Below are positions 11,067-17,523 of a stretch of DNA of 35,331 nt, one piece after another. This DNA comes from a virus (taxonomy: Duplodnaviria; Heunggongvirae; Uroviricota; Caudoviricetes): IMG/VR virus record IMGVR_UViG_2703718813_000007. One strand, 5' to 3'. Position numbers and translations under genes: made by a program. Each line of letters starts with the position of its first letter. Within the stretch, counting starts at the first letter, position 1. Under the pieces are notes generated by a model, which was given only the letters and a program-made list of their open reading frames with translations, searched no databases and had not been told where the DNA came from.

Positions 11067-11394
11067 AGTTCACCCTGGTGTTTATGCGTCCAAAATCCTG
11101 TGTCTCTGCCGTCACATGCAGCCTGCCCGGTGCCTCTTCGTTAATGAACACCGTCCCCGGAACCAGCCGTTCATCATCCTCAACCAGGAGGATAAGCCGG
11201 GTAATGATGTCGCTGCGCAGCGTCGGGCTGCGTTCGCCGATAAGCAGGGCGGCGATCCCGCTTTCGATAATGCTGTGCACCACGTCCTGGCCGATGCTGA
11301 CCCGGTTATCACATCGCTGTGGCTCGTTTCCGCTGTTCAGCGTAAAACTGCCGTCAGTGATAAGCAGGTCGATGTAAAGCGATGGCGTGTTCAT
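11044..11394 (-). CDS. Small baseplate protein (P2 W / Mu gp46-like position), about 116 aa
   Basis: The ATG at 11394 overlaps the tape-measure stop codon (ATGA); the track start at 11415 would overlap by 25 nt. Function inferred from position between tape measure and baseplate J. Confidence 0.45.
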   Translation of the reverse strand: MNTPSLYIDLLITDGSFTLNSGNEPQRCDNRVSIGQDVVHSIIESGIAALLIGERSPTLRSDIITRLILLVEDDERLVPGTVFINEEAPGRLHVTAETQDFGRINTRVNYERETGR

Positions 11395-13577
11395 CCCGCG
11401 TAAAGCTCCGTCCATTCATCCAGTTGCCCCGGCGTCATCGGGTTCTGCGTGTTGATTGTCAGATTGCCGAACGTCCGGCTGTTGTCGATACGGGTTGAGG
11501 TGTCCGTGCGTATCTGGTTGCGTATGCCTCCGGGTGGCAGCTCTGCGCTGATGCGGTTGCCTGCCAGTGCCGGGACGGCGGTTTCTGCAATCTGCGGAGG
11601 TACGGTGCTGCCTGTTGCGCCCCGCGTCATGGTGTTCACCTGCTCCGTGGGCTTCATGTCGATACTGATACCGGGGATTTTGTTCAGCTTTTCCGCAAGC
11701 CAGTTCCACGTCCGGTTAAACGAGTTTTTAATGACGTTCCATAAGTCCCCGAAGACGTTACCGATGATCCCCGCCATTTTCCGGAAGGATTCGACCGGGG
11801 CGGTCGGGTCAAATGCAGCCACCACGTCCTGCCACCCTCTGATGACGATGGCGAAGATGTCGATCAGGGTTCTGATCACGCTGATAACCACCTCCAGCGC
11901 GGGGGATATCATGCTTACCGCTGCGGCCACCACGCGACCGCATGTTTCCCCGGCACGGGTGACGCTGTTCATCTGTCCCGTGGTCAGCTGTACCGGTGCA
12001 AACAGATCGGAGAAGGCACTGAACAGTGTTTTTATGCCCTGCCATACCGGGGCCAGCGCCCGGGCAATGTCACCGAACGCGGCAGTCACCGGGCTCATGG
12101 CGTCCAGTGCGCTGGTAAAACCATCAATAAAGCCGCGAATAAAGGCTTTGATGGGCTGCCAGAACTTAATGGCCACCACCACCAGAGCAGCGATGGCGGC
12201 GGCAACCAGGAGGACCGGGGCGCTCATGGTCAGAAACGACACGCCCGCCAGACGCGCGGCAAGACTGGTGGCAATGATGGCACTGCGTACTTTTGTGAGT
12301 GCAAGCGTGTACAGACTCCAGGCTGCCCTGGCGCCCTTTATGATGGCCTTATGGCCTTCCATGATGAAGCTGAACACACCCAGCACGATGTTCGTGACCG
12401 CACCGGCTGCGCCCAGCGCCAGCATGGTCAGCGTGATGTAACCCAGCCAGCGGGCGATGTTCGGGAACATGTTCAGCCAGCGCACGAACGTCGCGCCGAT
12501 ATCGGCAAAACGGCCAGCCAGTGGTGCGAGAATGGGGTAGAGGGCATTACCGATGGCGGCCCGGATGTTGTAGAAGGAGGCCACAAGGCGATCCCACGGG
12601 TCGGTCATGGCTTCAGCCATTTCCGTGGCACGCTTCATGCCGTCATTACGCCCCAGCGCTGATATGCTCCGGTTAAGCATTTCCTGCTGCCCCCAGAGTT
12701 TTTTAATCACGTCCGCGCCACTGCCGAAGGCGTCATCCAGCGCCTGTTGTGCCGCCACGTTACCCTCAATGTTCCTGCCGAACCTCGCCTGCAGACGGTC
12801 GAGGATGTCACCCATGGGTAAAATCCTCCCGGTGACATCGACAAAACTCATCCCCATTTTTTGTGCGGCAGCGGGGGCACTGCGCAGGAATTCCTCATAG
12901 ATGCCCGATGCCTCGGTGCCCATGGTCCGTGACAGGGTGCCCAGTATGGCAAACTGCTCTGCCATGCTGACGCCAAAATCCGCGCCCGCGTTTTTGGTGC
13001 CCTCAATAAGCTCCTGCATGGTGCTCATTTCCACACCGAACTGCTGAACCATCCACGCGGTTTTACCTGCCAGATCTTCAGCAAACCCCACGGCACCCAT
13101 GGCAGAAAACTCACTGCGGAAACGGGCACCCATGGCGGCAAGGTAGCCGCTCGCCTCTTCGCTGCTGACGCGGGCAGCCACGGCCAGGGTGCTGGTTGCT
13201 GCCGTCACACGGGGTAAATCCCCGTCGCTCAGTCCGTCCAGTGCGCCGCGAATATGCCATGCGGAACGGATGATCTCCGTGGAAGACTGACCGAATGCGG
13301 TCCCCAGTTTCATGGCCTGCGTGGTGAGGGCGGTCAGCGCCTGCGCCCCGACGCCTTTGGCCTCAAGCTCGCCCAGCGCCTTCTGCATCTCCCACGCCGG
13401 ATCCATCGCGGCGCGGATACCTTCGGCCACGCCCCACAGTCCGGCCACACCCACACCGATACGCGCGAACGCGCCCTGCGAGCGTTCGGCGAATCCCGTC
13501 ACGGATTCCTGAACCTGCCGCAGCGGGCGGGTAAGCTGGTCTGTCAGATTGATAATGAAATCCAGCTGGCTGGCCAT
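11391..13577 (-). CDS. Tail tape measure protein, 728 aa
   Basis: Long, Ala/Gly-rich, largely helical protein with hydrophobic central segments, directly downstream of the tail assembly chaperone. GGAAGG lies 5 nt before the ATG at 13577. Confidence 0.85.
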   Translation of the reverse strand: MASQLDFIINLTDQLTRPLRQVQESVTGFAERSQGAFARIGVGVAGLWGVAEGIRAAMDPAWEMQKALGELEAKGVGAQALTALTTQAMKLGTAFGQSSTEIIRSAWHIRGALDGLSDGDLPRVTAATSTLAVAARVSSEEASGYLAAMGARFRSEFSAMGAVGFAEDLAGKTAWMVQQFGVEMSTMQELIEGTKNAGADFGVSMAEQFAILGTLSRTMGTEASGIYEEFLRSAPAAAQKMGMSFVDVTGRILPMGDILDRLQARFGRNIEGNVAAQQALDDAFGSGADVIKKLWGQQEMLNRSISALGRNDGMKRATEMAEAMTDPWDRLVASFYNIRAAIGNALYPILAPLAGRFADIGATFVRWLNMFPNIARWLGYITLTMLALGAAGAVTNIVLGVFSFIMEGHKAIIKGARAAWSLYTLALTKVRSAIIATSLAARLAGVSFLTMSAPVLLVAAAIAALVVVAIKFWQPIKAFIRGFIDGFTSALDAMSPVTAAFGDIARALAPVWQGIKTLFSAFSDLFAPVQLTTGQMNSVTRAGETCGRVVAAAVSMISPALEVVISVIRTLIDIFAIVIRGWQDVVAAFDPTAPVESFRKMAGIIGNVFGDLWNVIKNSFNRTWNWLAEKLNKIPGISIDMKPTEQVNTMTRGATGSTVPPQIAETAVPALAGNRISAELPPGGIRNQIRTDTSTRIDNSRTFGNLTINTQNPMTPGQLDEWTELYAG

Positions 13578-13578
13578 G

Positions 13579-14042
13579 TCACCTTCCGTTAAATGCGATC
13601 GCTATACCTTCAGCGGTCTTGTTGGCGCGGGTACGGGCAAAATATTCATCCAGCCAGATGGCACGGGCGATGCTCTCTTCGTCGTCCGGCTCTCCGGGGA
13701 GGTAGTGACGCCGCAATGCCAGATACTGCTCAAGGGGATTGCGGCGGATGCTTTCGACCCGCGCGGTCAGTTTTTTAACTCAATCTCCAGTTTCGGGGAG
13801 TAAACCTCGTTAATCTTCTCGACGATCTGCATCTCACAGCCCGGATAACGCGCAATCAGGTCAGCCAGTGCGTCGCGGCTGGCAGGTGTCACGATGCGGT
13901 TAAGATAGGTGCTCATCGGCGCCACCTTGTTGGTCATCGTGATTTCGTTGATGAGGTTGTTAAATGCCGTTTTGTTCGGTTCAAAGCTCAGGGTTACGCC
14001 CGCAACGGACAGGATGATGGTGCCGGTGTTCTTCGTGGTCAT
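13579..14042 (-). CDS. Predicted -1 frameshift fusion product of the tail assembly chaperone (P2 E+E' analogue)
   Basis: After a -1 slip at the heptamer (plus-strand coordinates 13770-13776), 63 codons remain open (KKLTARVESIRRNPLEQYLALRRHYLPGEPDDEESIARAIWLDEYFARTRANKTAEGIAIAFNGR) and stop at 13579-13581, 1 nt before the tape-measure ATG. The track shows no ATG-initiated ORF in this 190-nt gap. Confidence 0.5.
13767..14042 (-). CDS. Tail assembly chaperone (P2 gpE-like), 91 aa
   Basis: Small ORF immediately upstream of the tape measure. It ends ...CTG GAG ATT GAG TTA AAA AAC TGA, with the heptamer A_AAA_AAC directly before the stop. Confidence 0.6.
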   Translation of the reverse strand: MTTKNTGTIILSVAGVTLSFEPNKTAFNNLINEITMTNKVAPMSTYLNRIVTPASRDALADLIARYPGCEMQIVEKINEVYSPKLEIELKN

Positions 14043-14332
14043 TGCAGTTTCTCCGTGTTTCGTATGGTTTCCACCAGGCTGTTATGCCTGGCGGCGCATT
14101 CGGTGTAGCGGCTCGTGAGGGTTCGCAGTGCCGCATCAAAATCAGCGCCCGTCGGGCCTGCCAGTCTCGGCAGTGTCTTCGGGCATTCCGTCAGCTGGTT
14201 TTCCTGCCAGGGTACGCTCAGCGGCTTCAGCACGGGCGTTGAACAGCCGGACGTAATCATCAGTAGCGCACACATTGCGGAATACCGGGCGGACGGTTTC
14301 CGTGTGAATAACGCGTTCAGTGTGAATTTCAT
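14039..14332 (-). CDS. o-spanin (Rz1-like outer-membrane lipoprotein); start at 14332 or 14275
   Basis: Small Pro-rich ORF in an alternate frame overlapping the 3' half of the i-spanin gene. It has a lipobox-like ITSGC after a hydrophobic stretch, and its stop overlaps the chaperone ATG. Confidence 0.5.
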   Translation of the reverse strand: MKFTLNALFTRKPSARYSAMCALLMITSGCSTPVLKPLSVPWQENQLTECPKTLPRLAGPTGADFDAALRTLTSRYTECAARHNSLVETIRNTEKLQ

Positions 14333-14528
14333 TGCCCTTTAACGCCTCCAGCCGTTTTTCCAGTATGCGGGCGGACTGCTGCCCGGCTTCTGTCACCGCC
14401 CGTCGCGTGGCTTCCATGGCTTCCTGTTCGGCAAGCGCCACCCTGGCGTCATGCCAGTCATGGGCCAGCCAGCCCGCCCACATGGCGGCAAAGAGGATCA
14501 CCAGGCAGCCCGCCAGCTGTTTCATCAT
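14142..14528 (-). CDS. i-spanin (Rz-like), 128 aa
   Basis: N-terminal transmembrane helix (LAGCLVILFAAMWAGWLA) followed by a charged helical periplasmic domain. Directly downstream of the endolysin with an ATGA overlap. Confidence 0.6.
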   Translation of the reverse strand: MMKQLAGCLVILFAAMWAGWLAHDWHDARVALAEQEAMEATRRAVTEAGQQSARILEKRLEALKGNEIHTERVIHTETVRPVFRNVCATDDYVRLFNARAEAAERTLAGKPADGMPEDTAETGRPDGR

Positions 14529-14863
14529 TTCACCCCGTTGTGCTCAAGGCTGAAATGATTGCCGTCTGCCCGGCTGAAGCGTCCGCCCCATGTGCCGCCG
14601 ATGGATTCCCAGTATTCCCCCAGCGGCCTGTAGGCGTCGGTGTCGGCCTGGTATTTGCCGTTAATGAACAGGTTGAAGTCCACCGCGAGGCGCAGCGTGT
14701 GAAGGCTGTTGCGAATGCCTTTTCCGCTTTTCGCATTCAGTGCGGCCTGCTCCGGCGTGCGGTATGCCTCGCCGAAGGTCAGGCGATAGCCGTGCTCCTG
14801 TGCCCAGTGGATGAGATCGGCAATCATGACGGCAAACAGTTGTTGTTTTTCGCTCAGTTTCAT
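14525..14863 (-). CDS. Endolysin, peptidase M15 family (L-alanyl-D-glutamate peptidase type), 112 aa
   Basis: Metal-binding motifs of M15-type phage endolysins as recalled: H in SLHTLRLAVDF, D in AVD, and H in DGNHFS. GAGGAG precedes the ATG, which overlaps the methyltransferase stop. Confidence 0.75.
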   Translation of the reverse strand: MKLSEKQQLFAVMIADLIHWAQEHGYRLTFGEAYRTPEQAALNAKSGKGIRNSLHTLRLAVDFNLFINGKYQADTDAYRPLGEYWESIGGTWGGRFSRADGNHFSLEHNGVK

Positions 14864-15615
14864 CAGTCACTCCTCTGTTCCGTCCCCGTAAGGCGCGCCT
14901 GTGCCACGCTGAAATAGTGGGCGTTCAGTTCAATACCCGTAAAACGGCAGCCCCGGCGAAGGGCGGCCACGCCCGTGGTGCCGGACCCCATAAACGGATC
15001 GAGGATCAGCCCTCCGGGTTCACACACGCGCACAAGCTCATCCATCAACGATTCCGGTTTACCTGTCGGGTGCTGTTTCTCCTGTGGGCGTGTGTGGTGC
15101 GTGATGCAGCCGTCGAACGGCCCGGAAGGGGATTTGCCCAGCGCGCCTTTACTGCCCCAGACCACATATTCGCACTGGTGACGAAAATAACCGGTATGCG
15201 GTGTTCTTGAGGCCCGTCCCTTGTTCCATGCCACGATCCCCCGCCAGGTAAAACCGGCGGCCTGGAATGCGTCCGTCAGCGCGGGCAACTGCCGCCAGTC
15301 GGTGAAGACCAGGGCGTAACCACCGGGTCGTACCGTGCGCCATGCCTGTGTCATCCACAGATGCGTCCAGTATTCCCATGAACGGGCGTCCATGTTCTCG
15401 CCTTCGAAGCCTTCAAAGCGGTGAAGATCTTCATCGTTGATGTATTTGGCGTGGCTGCCCTGGCATGTCCGCCCCGCCTTGTGTGTGGCACCTGAACTGT
15501 ATGGCGGGTCTGTGATGAGCGCGTCCACACTGTTTTCCGGCAGCATTCGCAGAACGTCATGCGCCTGCGCGTGATACAGGCTCAGGAAAGGCGAAATGTA
15601 AGGCTTATGGGTCAT
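14863..15615 (-). CDS. DNA methyltransferase (N6-adenine or N4-cytosine, beta-class), 250 aa
   Basis: Motif IV DPPY near the N-terminus (ALITDPPYSS) and the AdoMet motif I near the C-terminus (LILDPFMGSGTTGVAA), with HPTGKPESL between them. This circularly permuted order is typical of beta-class amino-methyltransferases. No adjacent restriction gene. Confidence 0.85.
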   Translation of the reverse strand: MTHKPYISPFLSLYHAQAHDVLRMLPENSVDALITDPPYSSGATHKAGRTCQGSHAKYINDEDLHRFEGFEGENMDARSWEYWTHLWMTQAWRTVRPGGYALVFTDWRQLPALTDAFQAAGFTWRGIVAWNKGRASRTPHTGYFRHQCEYVVWGSKGALGKSPSGPFDGCITHHTRPQEKQHPTGKPESLMDELVRVCEPGGLILDPFMGSGTTGVAALRRGCRFTGIELNAHYFSVAQARLTGTEQRSD

Positions 15616-15914: not shown

Positions 15915-16376
15915 TCACCCCTTCAGATCGCGGGTGTCACGGGCTGACAGGTAGGGCACGCCGTCAATGCTGATAAAGTCCGGGCTTGTGACCATGAACT
16001 TGATTTTTTTCGTGGTCTTTCCGGCTTCAGCTGCGCTGATGTTCACCACGTCCGACAACATGGGGACGCAGCCGAACACCTCGATTTTTTCCTCCTCGCT
16101 GCCGTTGTTGGCATAAAAGAGAAAATCCTTTTCAGGAATGGCACGCCACGACCCCGCAGAGCGGGCCACAGCACCAAACTTTTTAAAGTTCTGCGCGTCG
16201 ACTTCCACCTCCACATCGGCAGAAACAGAACCACGGGTGTAGCCGTTCGGCACGCCGCGCGTCTGTGCCACGGCGCTGTTGTCGGTGATGGTGACGGTGG
16301 CGCTTTCCACGTGGATCATGATCCCGTCGTAGTTGATATCAAACGCGCCGCCGCTGATACGTTCATTTCCGGCCAT
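15915..16376 (-). CDS. Tail tube protein (putative), about 153 aa
   Basis: The ATG at 16376 lies 1 nt after the sheath stop codon (TGAcATG), preceded by GGAG. Size and position after the sheath gene are the main evidence. Confidence 0.5.
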   Translation of the reverse strand: MAGNERISGGAFDINYDGIMIHVESATVTITDNSAVAQTRGVPNGYTRGSVSADVEVEVDAQNFKKFGAVARSAGSWRAIPEKDFLFYANNGSEEEKIEVFGCVPMLSDVVNISAAEAGKTTKKIKFMVTSPDFISIDGVPYLSARDTRDLKG

Positions 16377-16377
16377 G

Positions 16378-17523
16378 TCAGATCTCCAGTGCTGTGTCGA
16401 GTTCAATACTTACGCCAATGGCTTTTGCGCTCTCGTAGGGGCGTACCACAATGTAAATCTGCACGTGTGTACTGCTGGTCCAGACGATGGTGATATCCCC
16501 GTCCTGTGGCGGTTTAACCTCGCCGGGGAACGGTACGCCGTTAATCTCCGTGGCGAGCGCCATTTCACGCAGCGTGCGGCTGAAATATGTCTGGCTGGCG
16601 GCAATGCTGCCCGGTGTGCTGTTGAGTGCGCGATCCGCAAGGCGGGCAATGGCGCGCAGACGTACACGGCGGGAGACTTTATCCACCACGCGCACGTTTT
16701 CGATGACCTGGTAATCTCCCCCCTCCACATCAAGGGTGCGTCCGTCTGACCAGTAGAGCCCGTCGAAATCGTGATACCACATGGGCACGCTGAAGCGTTT
16801 GCCTTCCAGCGAGCGCAGCGTGGCCAGCTCAAGGGGCTGTTTCTTGCCGTCCTGCGGGATCTCATCGTTACCCATCGCCACCAGGGCACCGGTTGCCACA
16901 CGTGCCGGACTGTCCGCAACGGTGACGGAAGGATTACAGAGACGGCCCGCCAGTACGCCGGGCTCATTACCCCATAAGCGGGGAACCACCATCACGCCAG
17001 GTGCTGCCACGCCGTCCTGTATGGCACTGATGCGGGTGACGTATGCCGCCCATGCCTCATCCTTGCCCGGTCCGGCCACGCACAGCATGAACCAGACAAA
17101 ACGGCCATAAGCGGACTGAAGCAGGGCGCGGGTTTCGGTGGCGCGGTTAACGGCATCTTTGGCCGTGATGTCAATGGCAATCACCACGCCCTCGGCAGAA
17201 GCAATGGTCTGCGCTTTTTTCACCGCGTCCACCCATGCGGCGTTAGCGTCGCCGCCCTCCGGTGCCGGGGGTTTGGGTTCAGACAGAACGTGAACATAGG
17301 CAAACCAGTTCTGGCCACCGTTGGCGATTGCGGCGGTAAGCGTGGATTTAAGCAGGCTTTCATCCGGTCCCAGCACGTCGTCCAGGTCGGTCTCAGGGGA
17401 GACGGAAAGGGTGTTACCTGTGTTCTTTTTGCCATAGCCCACAAAAAGCAGCGTGCGCTCCACTTCACGGGTGGCACCGTTGAAACGGTTCTGATGGCTT
17501 ACGGTTACATTCGGCCAGCTCAC
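16378..17523 (-). CDS. Tail sheath protein (putative), 381 aa; GTG start
   Basis: Largest gene between the tail-completion genes and the tube-sized gene; GTG start at 17523 with AAGGAG 7 nt upstream. Assignment is by position and size, with weak resemblance to P2 FI. Confidence 0.5.
   Translation of the reverse strand: MSWPNVTVSHQNRFNGATREVERTLLFVGYGKKNTGNTLSVSPETDLDDVLGPDESLLKSTLTAAIANGGQNWFAYVHVLSEPKPPAPEGGDANAAWVDAVKKAQTIASAEGVVIAIDITAKDAVNRATETRALLQSAYGRFVWFMLCVAGPGKDEAWAAYVTRISAIQDGVAAPGVMVVPRLWGNEPGVLAGRLCNPSVTVADSPARVATGALVAMGNDEIPQDGKKQPLELATLRSLEGKRFSVPMWYHDFDGLYWSDGRTLDVEGGDYQVIENVRVVDKVSRRVRLRAIARLADRALNSTPGSIAASQTYFSRTLREMALATEINGVPFPGEVKPPQDGDITIVWTSSTHVQIYIVVRPYESAKAIGVSIELDTALEI

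What the first reader, a model, noticed from the sequence alone, without database searches (positions are those of the whole stretch)
13579..14042. Probable programmed -1 ribosomal frameshift in the tail assembly chaperone
The chaperone ORF ends with the slippery heptamer A_AAA_AAC immediately before its stop codon. The -1 frame then stays open for 63 codons and terminates 1 nt before the tape-measure ATG, and the ORF track shows no ATG-initiated gene filling this 190-nt gap. This is the conserved G/GT (P2 E/E+E') arrangement.
Basis: partly seen in the sequence, partly recalled or inferred. Interest (0 to 1): 0.5.

Follow-up and report, generated by a model that had tools for sequence, protein, structure and literature searches.

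The report
Tail chaperone −1 frameshift, HP1-like prophage
This E. coli prophage almost certainly makes a second, longer tail-assembly chaperone by slipping back one base at AAAAAAC just before the stop codon. This is an ordinary, well-known phage trick, but databases currently mis-annotate it in this phage group as a separate "DUF6890" gene or leave it blank.

Summary
The 91-aa chaperone ORF (14042..13767, Pfam Phage_TAC_10) ends TTA-AAA-AAC-TGA, with A_AAA_AAC in the right phase. The −1 frame then runs 63 codons to a TGA one base before the tape-measure ATG (13577).

An open −1 frame of that length has about a 10% chance here, so the comparative evidence decides the case:
- 132 related loci (87 unique sequences, about 11 Peduoviridae genera, down to 31% protein identity) all keep xTA-AAA-AA[C/A] followed immediately by a stop (TGA, TAG or TAA).
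- The −1 peptide (Pfam DUF6890) is conserved from the first codon after the slip site.
- Codons 1–18, upstream of any start codon, show the same third-position bias as the rest.
- No start codon is conserved in the gap.

No database record annotates the slippage.

- The canonical tandem slip predicts ...ELKN-LTARVE..., not ELK-KLTARVE, which would indicate a P-site-only slip or transcriptional slippage.
- P2 E/E+E′ is an analogous arrangement, not a detectable homologue.
- No convincing stimulatory RNA structure exists in this window.

Verdict: a real but ordinary new member of a known kind.

The parts
13767..14042 (-). Tail assembly chaperone ORF ('G'), 91 aa plus TGA stop
   Evidence: ORF list and translation. 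Pfam Phage_TAC_10 E=9e-31 and phrog_1214 E=3e-31. AlphaFold model with pLDDT 82, a beta-hairpin plus 4 helices. Its viral fold matches are enriched for annotated tail assembly chaperones.
13770..13776 (-). Slippery heptamer A_AAA_AAC, in phase (zero-frame codons TT[A AAA AAC])
   Evidence: Phase checked. Invariant as AAAAAA[C/A] in 132 loci and 87 unique sequences. Synonymous sites are constrained.
13767..13769 (-). Zero-frame stop codon TGA directly abutting the heptamer (candidate 'shifty stop')
   Evidence: The stop is always immediately 3' of the heptamer, but its identity varies (TGA 56, TAA 13, TAG 10).
13579..13770 (-). -1 frame extension ('T'), 63 codons plus TGA; DUF6890 domain
   Evidence: Translation. 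Pfam DUF6890 E=4e-21 and phrog_7050 E=4e-25. Third-position-biased variation from codon 1. Model with pLDDT 85, three helices.
13579..14042 (-). Predicted fused product G-T, 154 aa (join 14042..13770, 13770..13582, then stop)
   Evidence: Constructed. tblastn shows the same two-frame, two-piece match in 67/67 phage records.
13579..13716 (-). TTG-initiated 45-aa ORF annotated by PGAP as 'DUF6890 family protein'; judged an annotation artefact (the C-terminal part of T)
   Evidence: Called starts of DUF6890 proteins vary (45-63 aa, including a CTG start inside the heptamer/stop).
13744..13762 (-). Candidate weak hairpin (6 bp, GCGGGU/AUCCGC, starting 7 nt after the heptamer); status inconclusive
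   Evidence: Folds (z = -0.5 and +0.3, no better than shuffles). Helix columns 35-40/48-53 of alignment A1 are 81% paired but with almost no compensatory change. There is no family-wide consensus structure.
13785..13788 (-). GGAG 8 nt upstream of the heptamer (possible internal Shine-Dalgarno-like stimulator; not conserved)
   Evidence: Seen in the sequence. Absent in HP1, K139 and others, so probably incidental to coding ..LEIE..
11391..13577 (-). Tape measure protein gene, 728 aa; its ATG lies 1 nt after the T stop, with GGAAGG (13587..13582) as its ribosome-binding site inside the end of T
   Evidence: Pfam PhageMin_Tail and phrog_28. Called as 728 aa in other assemblies.

Best explanation
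This is the tail-assembly-chaperone pair of an HP1-like (Peduoviridae) E. coli prophage.

Most ribosomes translate the 91-aa chaperone and terminate at TGA 13769..13767. A small fraction slip back one nucleotide on A_AAA_AAC (13776..13770). They then continue in the -1 frame through 63 more codons and stop one base before the tape-measure ATG, giving a 154-aa fusion (Phage_TAC_10 + DUF6890).

By analogy with lambda gpG/gpGT, the shared N-terminal domain would coat the tape-measure protein. The rare C-terminal domain would recruit the tail tube protein, so the slip frequency would fix the ratio of the two proteins.

Shown here:
- the sequence anatomy;
- protein-coding selection on the -1 frame right from the slip site;
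- the absence of a conserved start codon;
- nucleotide-level selection on the A-run and on the abutting stop.

Inferred:
- that the recoding is ribosomal rather than transcriptional;
- its efficiency, which is probably low. AAAAAAC gave 0.16-0.74% in E. coli reporters (PMC4066793 supplement);
- that the adjacent stop codon, rather than an RNA structure, is the local stimulator;
- the division of labour between the two domains.
For: Anatomy.

Domain identity: Phage_TAC_10 E=9e-31; DUF6890 E=4e-21; phrog_7050 E=4e-25; downstream PhageMin_Tail tape measure; upstream sheath and tube.

Conservation:
- 43 close loci and 12 divergent annotated phages, including HP1, K139, F108, phiO18P and ESSI-2, all share the junction.
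- 67/67 phage records show a two-frame match.
- 79/79 loci found through the extension alone have AAAAAAC plus a stop.
- In total, 132 loci and 87 unique sequences.

Coding selection from the slip site:
- Diversity by codon position is 0.117/0.104/0.36 for codons 1-18, against 0.109/0.081/0.328 for codons 19-63.
- 64% of codon differences are synonymous in the T frame, against 18% and 3% in the other frames.

No conserved start: the first possible ATG/GTG/TTG falls anywhere from codon 5 to codon 48.

Synonymous-site constraint: xTA AAA occurs in 87/87 unique sequences, against 5% A-ending V/L/I codons and 50% AAA Lys codons elsewhere.

No promoter-like site in the gap, and no Rfam family match.

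Literature:
- A_AAA_AAC is a proven low-efficiency -1 site in E. coli IS1, without a stimulator (PMC4066793).
- Lambda G:GT ratio of 30:1 and the domain roles (PMC5009743).
Against: - There is no experimental evidence for the fusion protein in this phage group.
- No fused protein is on record in the 5.8-billion-sequence collection, and no database record annotates slippage.
- A_AAA_AAC is a poor shifter in E. coli reporters and barely responds to stimulators.
- No significant downstream structure exists in the window.
- An open -1 frame of this length is not rare by chance (10%).
- The T domain has no detectable homology to P2 E-prime and no fold match, so its tube-binding role is pure analogy.
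Confidence: 0.82

Rival explanations
1. Transcriptional slippage: RNA polymerase occasionally adds one extra A in the A6 run (A7 in some Vibrio phages). This produces an mRNA in which chaperone and extension are in frame. The fusion protein is the same apart from the junction (..ELKK-LTARVE..).
For: - The conserved element is a homopolymeric A run (A6C or A7) in all 132 loci.
- AAAAAAA is under-represented in all frames of E. coli genes, possibly because of transcriptional slippage (PMC4066793).
- No convincing ribosomal stimulator exists in the window.
Against: - From my own knowledge, efficient bacterial transcriptional slippage usually needs runs of about 8-9 or more A/T, and A6 is short.
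- The run is always in the X_XXY_YYZ phase and always abuts a stop codon. Those constraints matter to ribosomes, not to RNA polymerase.
- The Vibrio subgroup carries strong hairpins 2-7 nt downstream, at the typical position of ribosomal stimulators.
- IS1 uses the same heptamer ribosomally.
Confidence: 0.08
2. The extension is a separate small gene (the PGAP 'DUF6890 family protein'). It would be translated from its own TTG/GTG/CTG start, or by termination-reinitiation after the chaperone stop.
For: - PGAP and several phage records annotate such ORFs.
- In the window a TTG at codon 19 has a weak GAG upstream.
- Many enteric relatives have a GTG at codon 5, 9 nt after the stop.
Against: - The position of the first possible start varies from codon 5 to codon 48. 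In L039/L040, YenM_324, SMHB1 and ESSI-2 it would remove most of the conserved domain.
- Codons 1-18, upstream of the window's TTG, are under the same purifying selection as the rest.
- Amino-acid conservation begins at the codon overlapping the heptamer.
- The CTG 'start' used for the 63-aa call is CTA or ATA in many relatives.
- Separate initiation does not explain why the A-run is invariant at synonymous sites.
Confidence: 0.06
3. Nothing programmed: the open -1 frame and the A-run are incidental, or a pseudogenised or mis-sequenced single gene.
For: An open -1 frame of at least 63 codons occurs about 10% of the time in this GC-rich window. A6N runs are not rare (56 on both strands).
Against: - The same two-frame layout appears in 132 independent loci from isolates, prophages and metagenomes spanning about 11 genera.
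- The -1 frame hits a curated protein family.
- It shows coding-type substitution patterns.
Confidence: 0.02

Closest known systems
Phage lambda gpG / gpGT (-1 frameshift at G_GGA_AAG; the general class described by Xu, Hendrix & Duda 2004)
   Same: - Two products share an N-terminus.
- The genes sit immediately upstream of the tape-measure gene.
- The second frame is -1 and lacks its own start.
[quoted passage not shown]
- A low-ratio fusion is expected (30:1 in lambda; PMC5009743).
   Different: - No sequence homology: the Pfam families differ.
- The heptamer is A_AAA_AAC rather than G_GGA_AAG.
- The slip site abuts the stop codon instead of lying several codons upstream.
- The tail is contractile, and a lysis cassette plus a DNA methylase lie between the tube gene and the chaperone.
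Phage P2 gpE / gpE+E' (T_TTT_TTG, about 10% frameshift; Christie et al. 2002, details as cited in PMC3091744)
   Same: - Same virus family (Peduoviridae).
- The short product has an identical length (91 aa).
- The extension is about 50-60 aa and ends at or overlaps the tape-measure start.
- No stimulatory hairpin is reported in P2.
- PGAP likewise mis-annotates E' as a free-standing 'GpE family phage tail protein'.
   Different: - E is Phage_TAC_7 and E' is Phage_P2_GpE, whereas here the halves are Phage_TAC_10 and DUF6890.
- hhalign of the two extension families gives probability 0.5%.
- The P2 heptamer is T_TTT_TTG, six codons before the stop.
- P2 is annotated with the slippage; this group is not.
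IS1 insA-insB' -1 frameshift at A_AAA_AAC
   Same: The same heptamer in the same host. It is a proven case with no established stimulator and low efficiency suited to a low product ratio (PMC4066793).
   Different: IS1 encodes a transposase, not a virion assembly factor. As far as I know, the zero-frame stop does not abut the heptamer there.
Acinetobacter siphovirus Loki gp12/gp13 and haloarchaeal virus HCTV-2 g-t
   Same: Both are tail chaperone pairs predicted to shift on A_AAA_AAC. [quoted passage not shown]
   Different: They are unrelated phages with non-contractile (Loki) or archaeal (HCTV-2) tails. Both are predictions only.

Membership tests
G/GT-type tail assembly chaperone frameshift (Xu et al. 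2004 class) | Pair of ORFs located between the major tail/tube gene and the tape-measure gene, directly upstream of the latter | tested here: met
   Gene order is sheath 17523..16378, tube 16406..15915, chaperone 14042..13767, extension to 13579, tape measure from 13577. A holin-methylase-endolysin-spanin block is inserted between tube and chaperone, as in HP1-like relatives.
G/GT-type tail assembly chaperone frameshift (Xu et al. 2004 class) | [quoted passage not shown] | tested here: met
   A_AAA_AAC at 13776..13770 with the correct phase. Conserved in 132 loci.
G/GT-type tail assembly chaperone frameshift (Xu et al. 2004 class) | Downstream ORF in the -1 frame without its own conserved initiation signal | tested here: met
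   There is no ATG in the frame in the window. The first possible start varies from codon 5 to 48 across relatives. No promoter-like site.
G/GT-type tail assembly chaperone frameshift (Xu et al. 2004 class) | Protein-coding conservation of the -1 frame extending back to the slip site | tested here: met
   Codon-position diversity and synonymous fraction are the same for codons 1-18 as for codons 19-63. tblastn matches start at residue 1 of the extension.
G/GT-type tail assembly chaperone frameshift (Xu et al. 2004 class) | Fusion protein actually made at a low fixed ratio and required for tail assembly | not testable with these tools
   This needs proteomics or genetics. No report was found in the held literature. 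Xu et al. 2004 and Christie et al. 2002 could not be read.
G/GT-type tail assembly chaperone frameshift (Xu et al. 2004 class) | Upstream product has a tail-assembly-chaperone fold or family | tested here: met
   [not shown]
P2 gpE / gpE+E' family (Phage_TAC_7 + Phage_P2_GpE) | Short product homologous to P2 gpE (PF10109) | tested here: not met
   The window protein hits PF10963 only. P2 E hits PF10109.
P2 gpE / gpE+E' family (Phage_TAC_7 + Phage_P2_GpE) | Extension homologous to E' (PF06528) | tested here: not met
   The extension hits PF21830 only. hhalign of DUF6890 against GpE' gives probability 0.5%, E=0.12, over 12 columns.
P2 gpE / gpE+E' family (Phage_TAC_7 + Phage_P2_GpE) | T_TTT_TTG shift site internal to E | tested here: not met
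   P2 has GGT TTT TTG six codons before the stop. Here the site is A_AAA_AAC abutting the stop.
Pfam DUF6890 (PF21830) / phrog_7050 | Significant match to the family model | tested here: met
   E=3.8e-21, 75 bits against a cutoff of 23.6, residues 19-62 of the extension. phrog_7050 E=3.9e-25.
Stimulated bacterial -1 PRF (dnaX / IS3 type) | Downstream stem-loop or pseudoknot about 5-9 nt after the heptamer | tested here: inconclusive
   In the window, z is -0.5 (90 nt) and +0.3 (45 nt). There is no family consensus structure. The candidate 6-bp helix is 81% paired but shows almost no covariation and is confounded by coding. Strong hairpins occur only in the A_AAA_AAA Vibrio/Salinivibrio subgroup.
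Stimulated bacterial -1 PRF (dnaX / IS3 type) | Internal Shine-Dalgarno-like sequence 6-17 nt upstream of the heptamer | tested here: inconclusive
   GGAG at 13788..13785 lies 8 nt upstream in the window. It is replaced by non-SD sequence in HP1, K139, SMHB1 and others.

The most novel reading that the evidence does not exclude
In this chaperone family the stimulator would not be an RNA structure. It would be the stop codon that invariably abuts the heptamer, a 'shifty stop'. Slow termination at the next codon would give the otherwise very poor A_AAA_AAC heptamer time to slip.

Lineages that switched to A_AAA_AAA, a heptamer that responds strongly to downstream structures, would have co-evolved a strong hairpin. 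On this reading the family is a natural experiment in alternative ways of tuning one frameshift ratio, and the same heptamer-plus-stop design arose convergently in unrelated phages such as Loki.
Probability: 0.3. Interest if true: 0.45.

Novelty: new member of a known kind. Interest (0 to 1): 0.3.

Why it matters
Mainly for annotation.

- The analysis assigns a function to Pfam DUF6890 / phrog_7050: it is the frameshift-encoded C-terminal domain of the Phage_TAC_10 tail assembly chaperone.
- NCBI's PGAP and every one of the 67 HP1-like phage records examined either miss the domain or call it as an arbitrary stand-alone mini-ORF (45-63 aa, with TTG, GTG or even CTG starts).
- Correct annotation (a join with ribosomal_slippage) would apply across HP1, HP2, K139, Kappa, F108, phiO18P, ESSI-2 and hundreds of prophages.

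Mechanistically, the strictly conserved heptamer-plus-stop design is a modestly interesting test case for how frameshift ratios are set without RNA structure. So is the apparent pairing of A_AAA_AAA with hairpins and of A_AAA_AAC with none. Neither would surprise a recoding specialist.

Tried and rejected
1. P2 homology. I tested whether DUF6890 is a diverged P2 E' domain, because of a shared H[YW]xPxE...W motif seen by eye. hhalign gave probability 0.5%, so I rejected it as unsupported.
2. Family-wide stimulatory RNA structure. RNAalifold on 42 unique junctions gave essentially nothing (-0.57 kcal/mol). The enteric 6-bp helix has almost no covariation. No Rfam family matches.
3. Structure of the fused 154-aa protein. 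The T model matched nothing.
4. Sequence search of the PDB with the fused alignment gave only non-significant hits.
5. Genome-wide scan with the diverse fused alignment failed because no conserved 7-10-column stretch was found. I replaced it with a tighter T-domain alignment on viral contigs. The genome-contig scan was not run.
6. Reading Xu et al. 2004 and Christie et al. 2002 to see whether HP1 was already listed. Neither paper is held, and full-text searches found no explicit report for HP1-like phages or for DUF6890.
7. CTG-initiated coupling (CTGA overlap). I rejected it because the codon is CTA or ATA in many relatives.

Full report
**1. The observation**

The genes lie on the minus strand. 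ORF 14042..13767 encodes a 91-aa protein ending ...PKLEIELKN*. Its last codons read TTA AAA AAC TGA, so A_AAA_AAC (13776..13770) is in the X_XXY_YYZ phase and directly abuts the stop.

The -1 frame opens only three codons upstream of the -1-frame codon that overlaps the stop. Read from the C at 13770, it gives 63 sense codons (LTARVESIRRNPLEQYLALRRHYLPGEPDDEESIARAIWLDEYFARTRANKTAEGIAIAFNGR). It then reaches TGA at 13581..13579, one base (C), and the ATG of a 728-aa tape-measure gene at 13577.

The -1 frame of the gap has no ATG. The only mechanical ORF there is TTG-initiated and 45 aa long (13716..13579). Every coordinate and statement in the finding is therefore correct.

Taken alone this is weak evidence. 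Within long ORFs of this window the -1 frame stays open for at least 63 codons about 10% of the time, and A6N runs occur 56 times on the two strands.

**2. What the pieces are**

- The short ORF is a Pfam Phage_TAC_10 protein (E=9e-31) and phrog_1214.
- The -1 extension matches Pfam DUF6890 (E=4e-21, residues 19-62) and phrog_7050 (E=4e-25). The extension is therefore a conserved protein domain, not an accidental open frame.
- Downstream is a PhageMin_Tail / phrog_28 tape measure. Upstream are a sheath (phrog_907) and an HP1 Orf24-type tube protein.
- The window is an E. coli prophage present in 12 of 5,426 complete genomes. Its nearest phages are Salmonella SI7/SW3/SW5 (74% DNA identity) and Aeromonas phiO18P, all Peduoviridae of the HP1-like branch.
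- A holin-methylase-endolysin-spanin block separates tube and chaperone, as in its relatives.

**3. Comparative evidence**

*Conservation of the junction.*
- In SI7 and phiO18P the junction is GTA AAA AAC TGA, and the -1 peptide KKLTAR..I.RN.LEQ.LALRRYYLP is conserved from the slip site.
- All 43 close loci from IMG/VR and annotated phages have AAAAAAC followed immediately by a stop, then a 62-63-codon extension that ends just before the tape-measure start.
- tblastn with the fused product finds 67 phage records, and every one shows a two-piece, two-frame match covering at least 80% of the query. They include HP1, HP2, K139, Kappa, F108, ESSI-2, PV94 and SMHB1.
- Twelve of these, from about 11 genera and down to 31% protein identity, all end xTA AAA AA[C/A] + stop.
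- A scan seeded only with the extension found 518 relatives. 79 of the 79 analysable top loci have AAAAAAC + stop (TGA 56, TAA 13, TAG 10), and homology starts at residue 1 of the extension.
- Altogether there are 132 loci and 87 unique sequences, with no exception.

*Frameshift versus a separate gene.* Three tests favour the frameshift.
- (i) No start codon is conserved. The first ATG/GTG/TTG in the extension falls at codon 5, 12, 13, 16, 17, 19, 38, 40 or 48, depending on the phage. In several phages initiation there would delete most of the conserved domain.
- (ii) Among 31 unique gapless sequences, nucleotide diversity by codon position in the T frame is 0.117/0.104/0.36 for codons 1-18, upstream of the window's TTG. 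For codons 19-63 it is 0.109/0.081/0.328. In codons 1-18, 64% of codon differences are synonymous in that frame, against 18% and 3% in the other two frames.
- (iii) The A-run is maintained at synonymous sites. All 87 unique sequences use xTA AAA at the site. Elsewhere in the same genes V/L/I codons end in A 5% of the time, GTA is 10% of Val codons, and AAA is 50% of Lys codons.

The gap has no promoter-like site and no Rfam match.

**4. How databases treat it**

- No record annotates slippage.
- The gap is left empty in HP1, K139, YenM_324, 1.202.O, ESSI-2, PV94 and SMHB1. Elsewhere it is filled by an ad hoc mini-ORF.
- DUF6890 proteins on record are stand-alone calls of 45, 48, 51, 57, 59 or 63 aa, and never fusions.
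- The 63-aa call uses CTG inside AAAAAA-CTG-A, on DNA identical to the window. That codon is CTA or ATA in many relatives.
- PGAP treats P2-type E' the same way, as a free 'GpE family phage tail protein'.

**5. Mechanism**

The best-supported reading is a programmed -1 ribosomal frameshift on A_AAA_AAC.

- In E. coli reporters AAAAAAC gives 0.16% without a stimulator, 0.19% with the IS911 stimulators and 0.74% with the IS3 pseudoknot. AAAAAAA gives 0.41, 0.82 and 24.8% (PMC4066793 supplement).
- It is nevertheless the proven shift site of IS1, which has no stimulator. A low ratio is also what chaperone pairs need: lambda G:GT is 30:1 (PMC5009743).

*Downstream structure.* I found no convincing one in the window.
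- z is -0.5 over 90 nt and +0.3 over 45 nt.
- There is no consensus structure across 42 junctions.
- A 6-bp helix starting 7 nt after the heptamer (13762..13744) is 81% paired across the family. It has almost no compensatory change and lies in conserved Ala-Arg-Val...Ile-Arg codons.

*The abutting stop.* The only universally conserved features are the A-run and the stop codon that immediately follows it. The identity of that stop varies. This suggests, but does not prove, a 'shifty stop' contribution. [quoted passage not shown]

*Junction peptide.* A canonical tandem slip predicts ...ELKN-LTARVE....

**6. Comparison with known systems**

The arrangement is that of lambda G/GT and P2 E/E+E'. 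P2 E is also 91 aa, with T_TTT_TTG six codons before its stop, and E' ends overlapping gene T (PMC3091744).

Membership of the P2 protein families fails, however. P2 E is Phage_TAC_7 and E' is Phage_P2_GpE, and a profile-profile comparison of DUF6890 with GpE' is non-significant.

*Structure.*
- The G model (pLDDT 82, a beta-hairpin plus four helices) has viral fold matches enriched for annotated tail assembly chaperones. None has E at or below 0.001.
- The T model (pLDDT 85, three helices) has no meaningful match.
- The assignment of tape-measure binding to G and tube binding to T is therefore by analogy only.

**7. Verdict**

This is a new, unannotated member of a very well known kind. I could not read Xu et al. 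2004 to check whether HP1 was already listed, and full-text searches found no explicit report.

The practical value is a function for DUF6890 and a systematic annotation fix. The mechanistic interest is modest.

Noticed in passing
L045, L050, L052, L053, L054 (Vibrio/Salinivibrio phages), 2-7 nt after the heptamer; compare window 13769..13725: Heptamer type tracks the presence of a hairpin. Five of six A_AAA_AAA phages have a strong hairpin just downstream (z -3.0 to -5.7). All 16 A_AAA_AAC phages have none (z -2.5 to +1.8). This fits reporter data in which AAAAAAA responds about 60-fold to a pseudoknot and AAAAAAC only about 4-fold. The sample covers few independent lineages, so it is phylogenetically confounded.
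   Followed up: partly
window 14039..14332 (-), overlapping 14142..14528 (-): A 97-aa ORF with a lipobox (..LLMITSGC..) overlaps the i-spanin-like gene in another frame. It looks like an overlapped o-spanin (Rz1 type). PGAP does not annotate it in the identical E. coli record. Its TGA overlaps the chaperone ATG (ATGA), which implies translational coupling of the lysis and tail genes.
   Followed up: no
window 13455..13577 (-); L001 3624 vs 3747: PGAP starts the tape-measure gene 41 codons downstream of the ATG at 13577 in NZ_CP027323. Other assemblies call the full 728 aa. The upstream ATG has a GGAAGG ribosome-binding site and sits 1 nt after the T-frame stop, so the longer call is probably right.
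   Followed up: partly
[not shown]
   Followed up: partly
window 14863..15615 (-): A DNA methyltransferase gene sits inside the lysis cassette (between holin and M15 endolysin), within the late tail operon. phiO18P has the same placement, but SI7 lacks the gene.
   Followed up: no
P0051-P0113 (P2-like prophages, not in the window): PGAP systematically annotates P2-type E' as stand-alone 35-52-aa 'GpE family phage tail protein' ORFs rather than as a frameshift extension. This is the same artefact as 'DUF6890 family protein'.
   Followed up: partly
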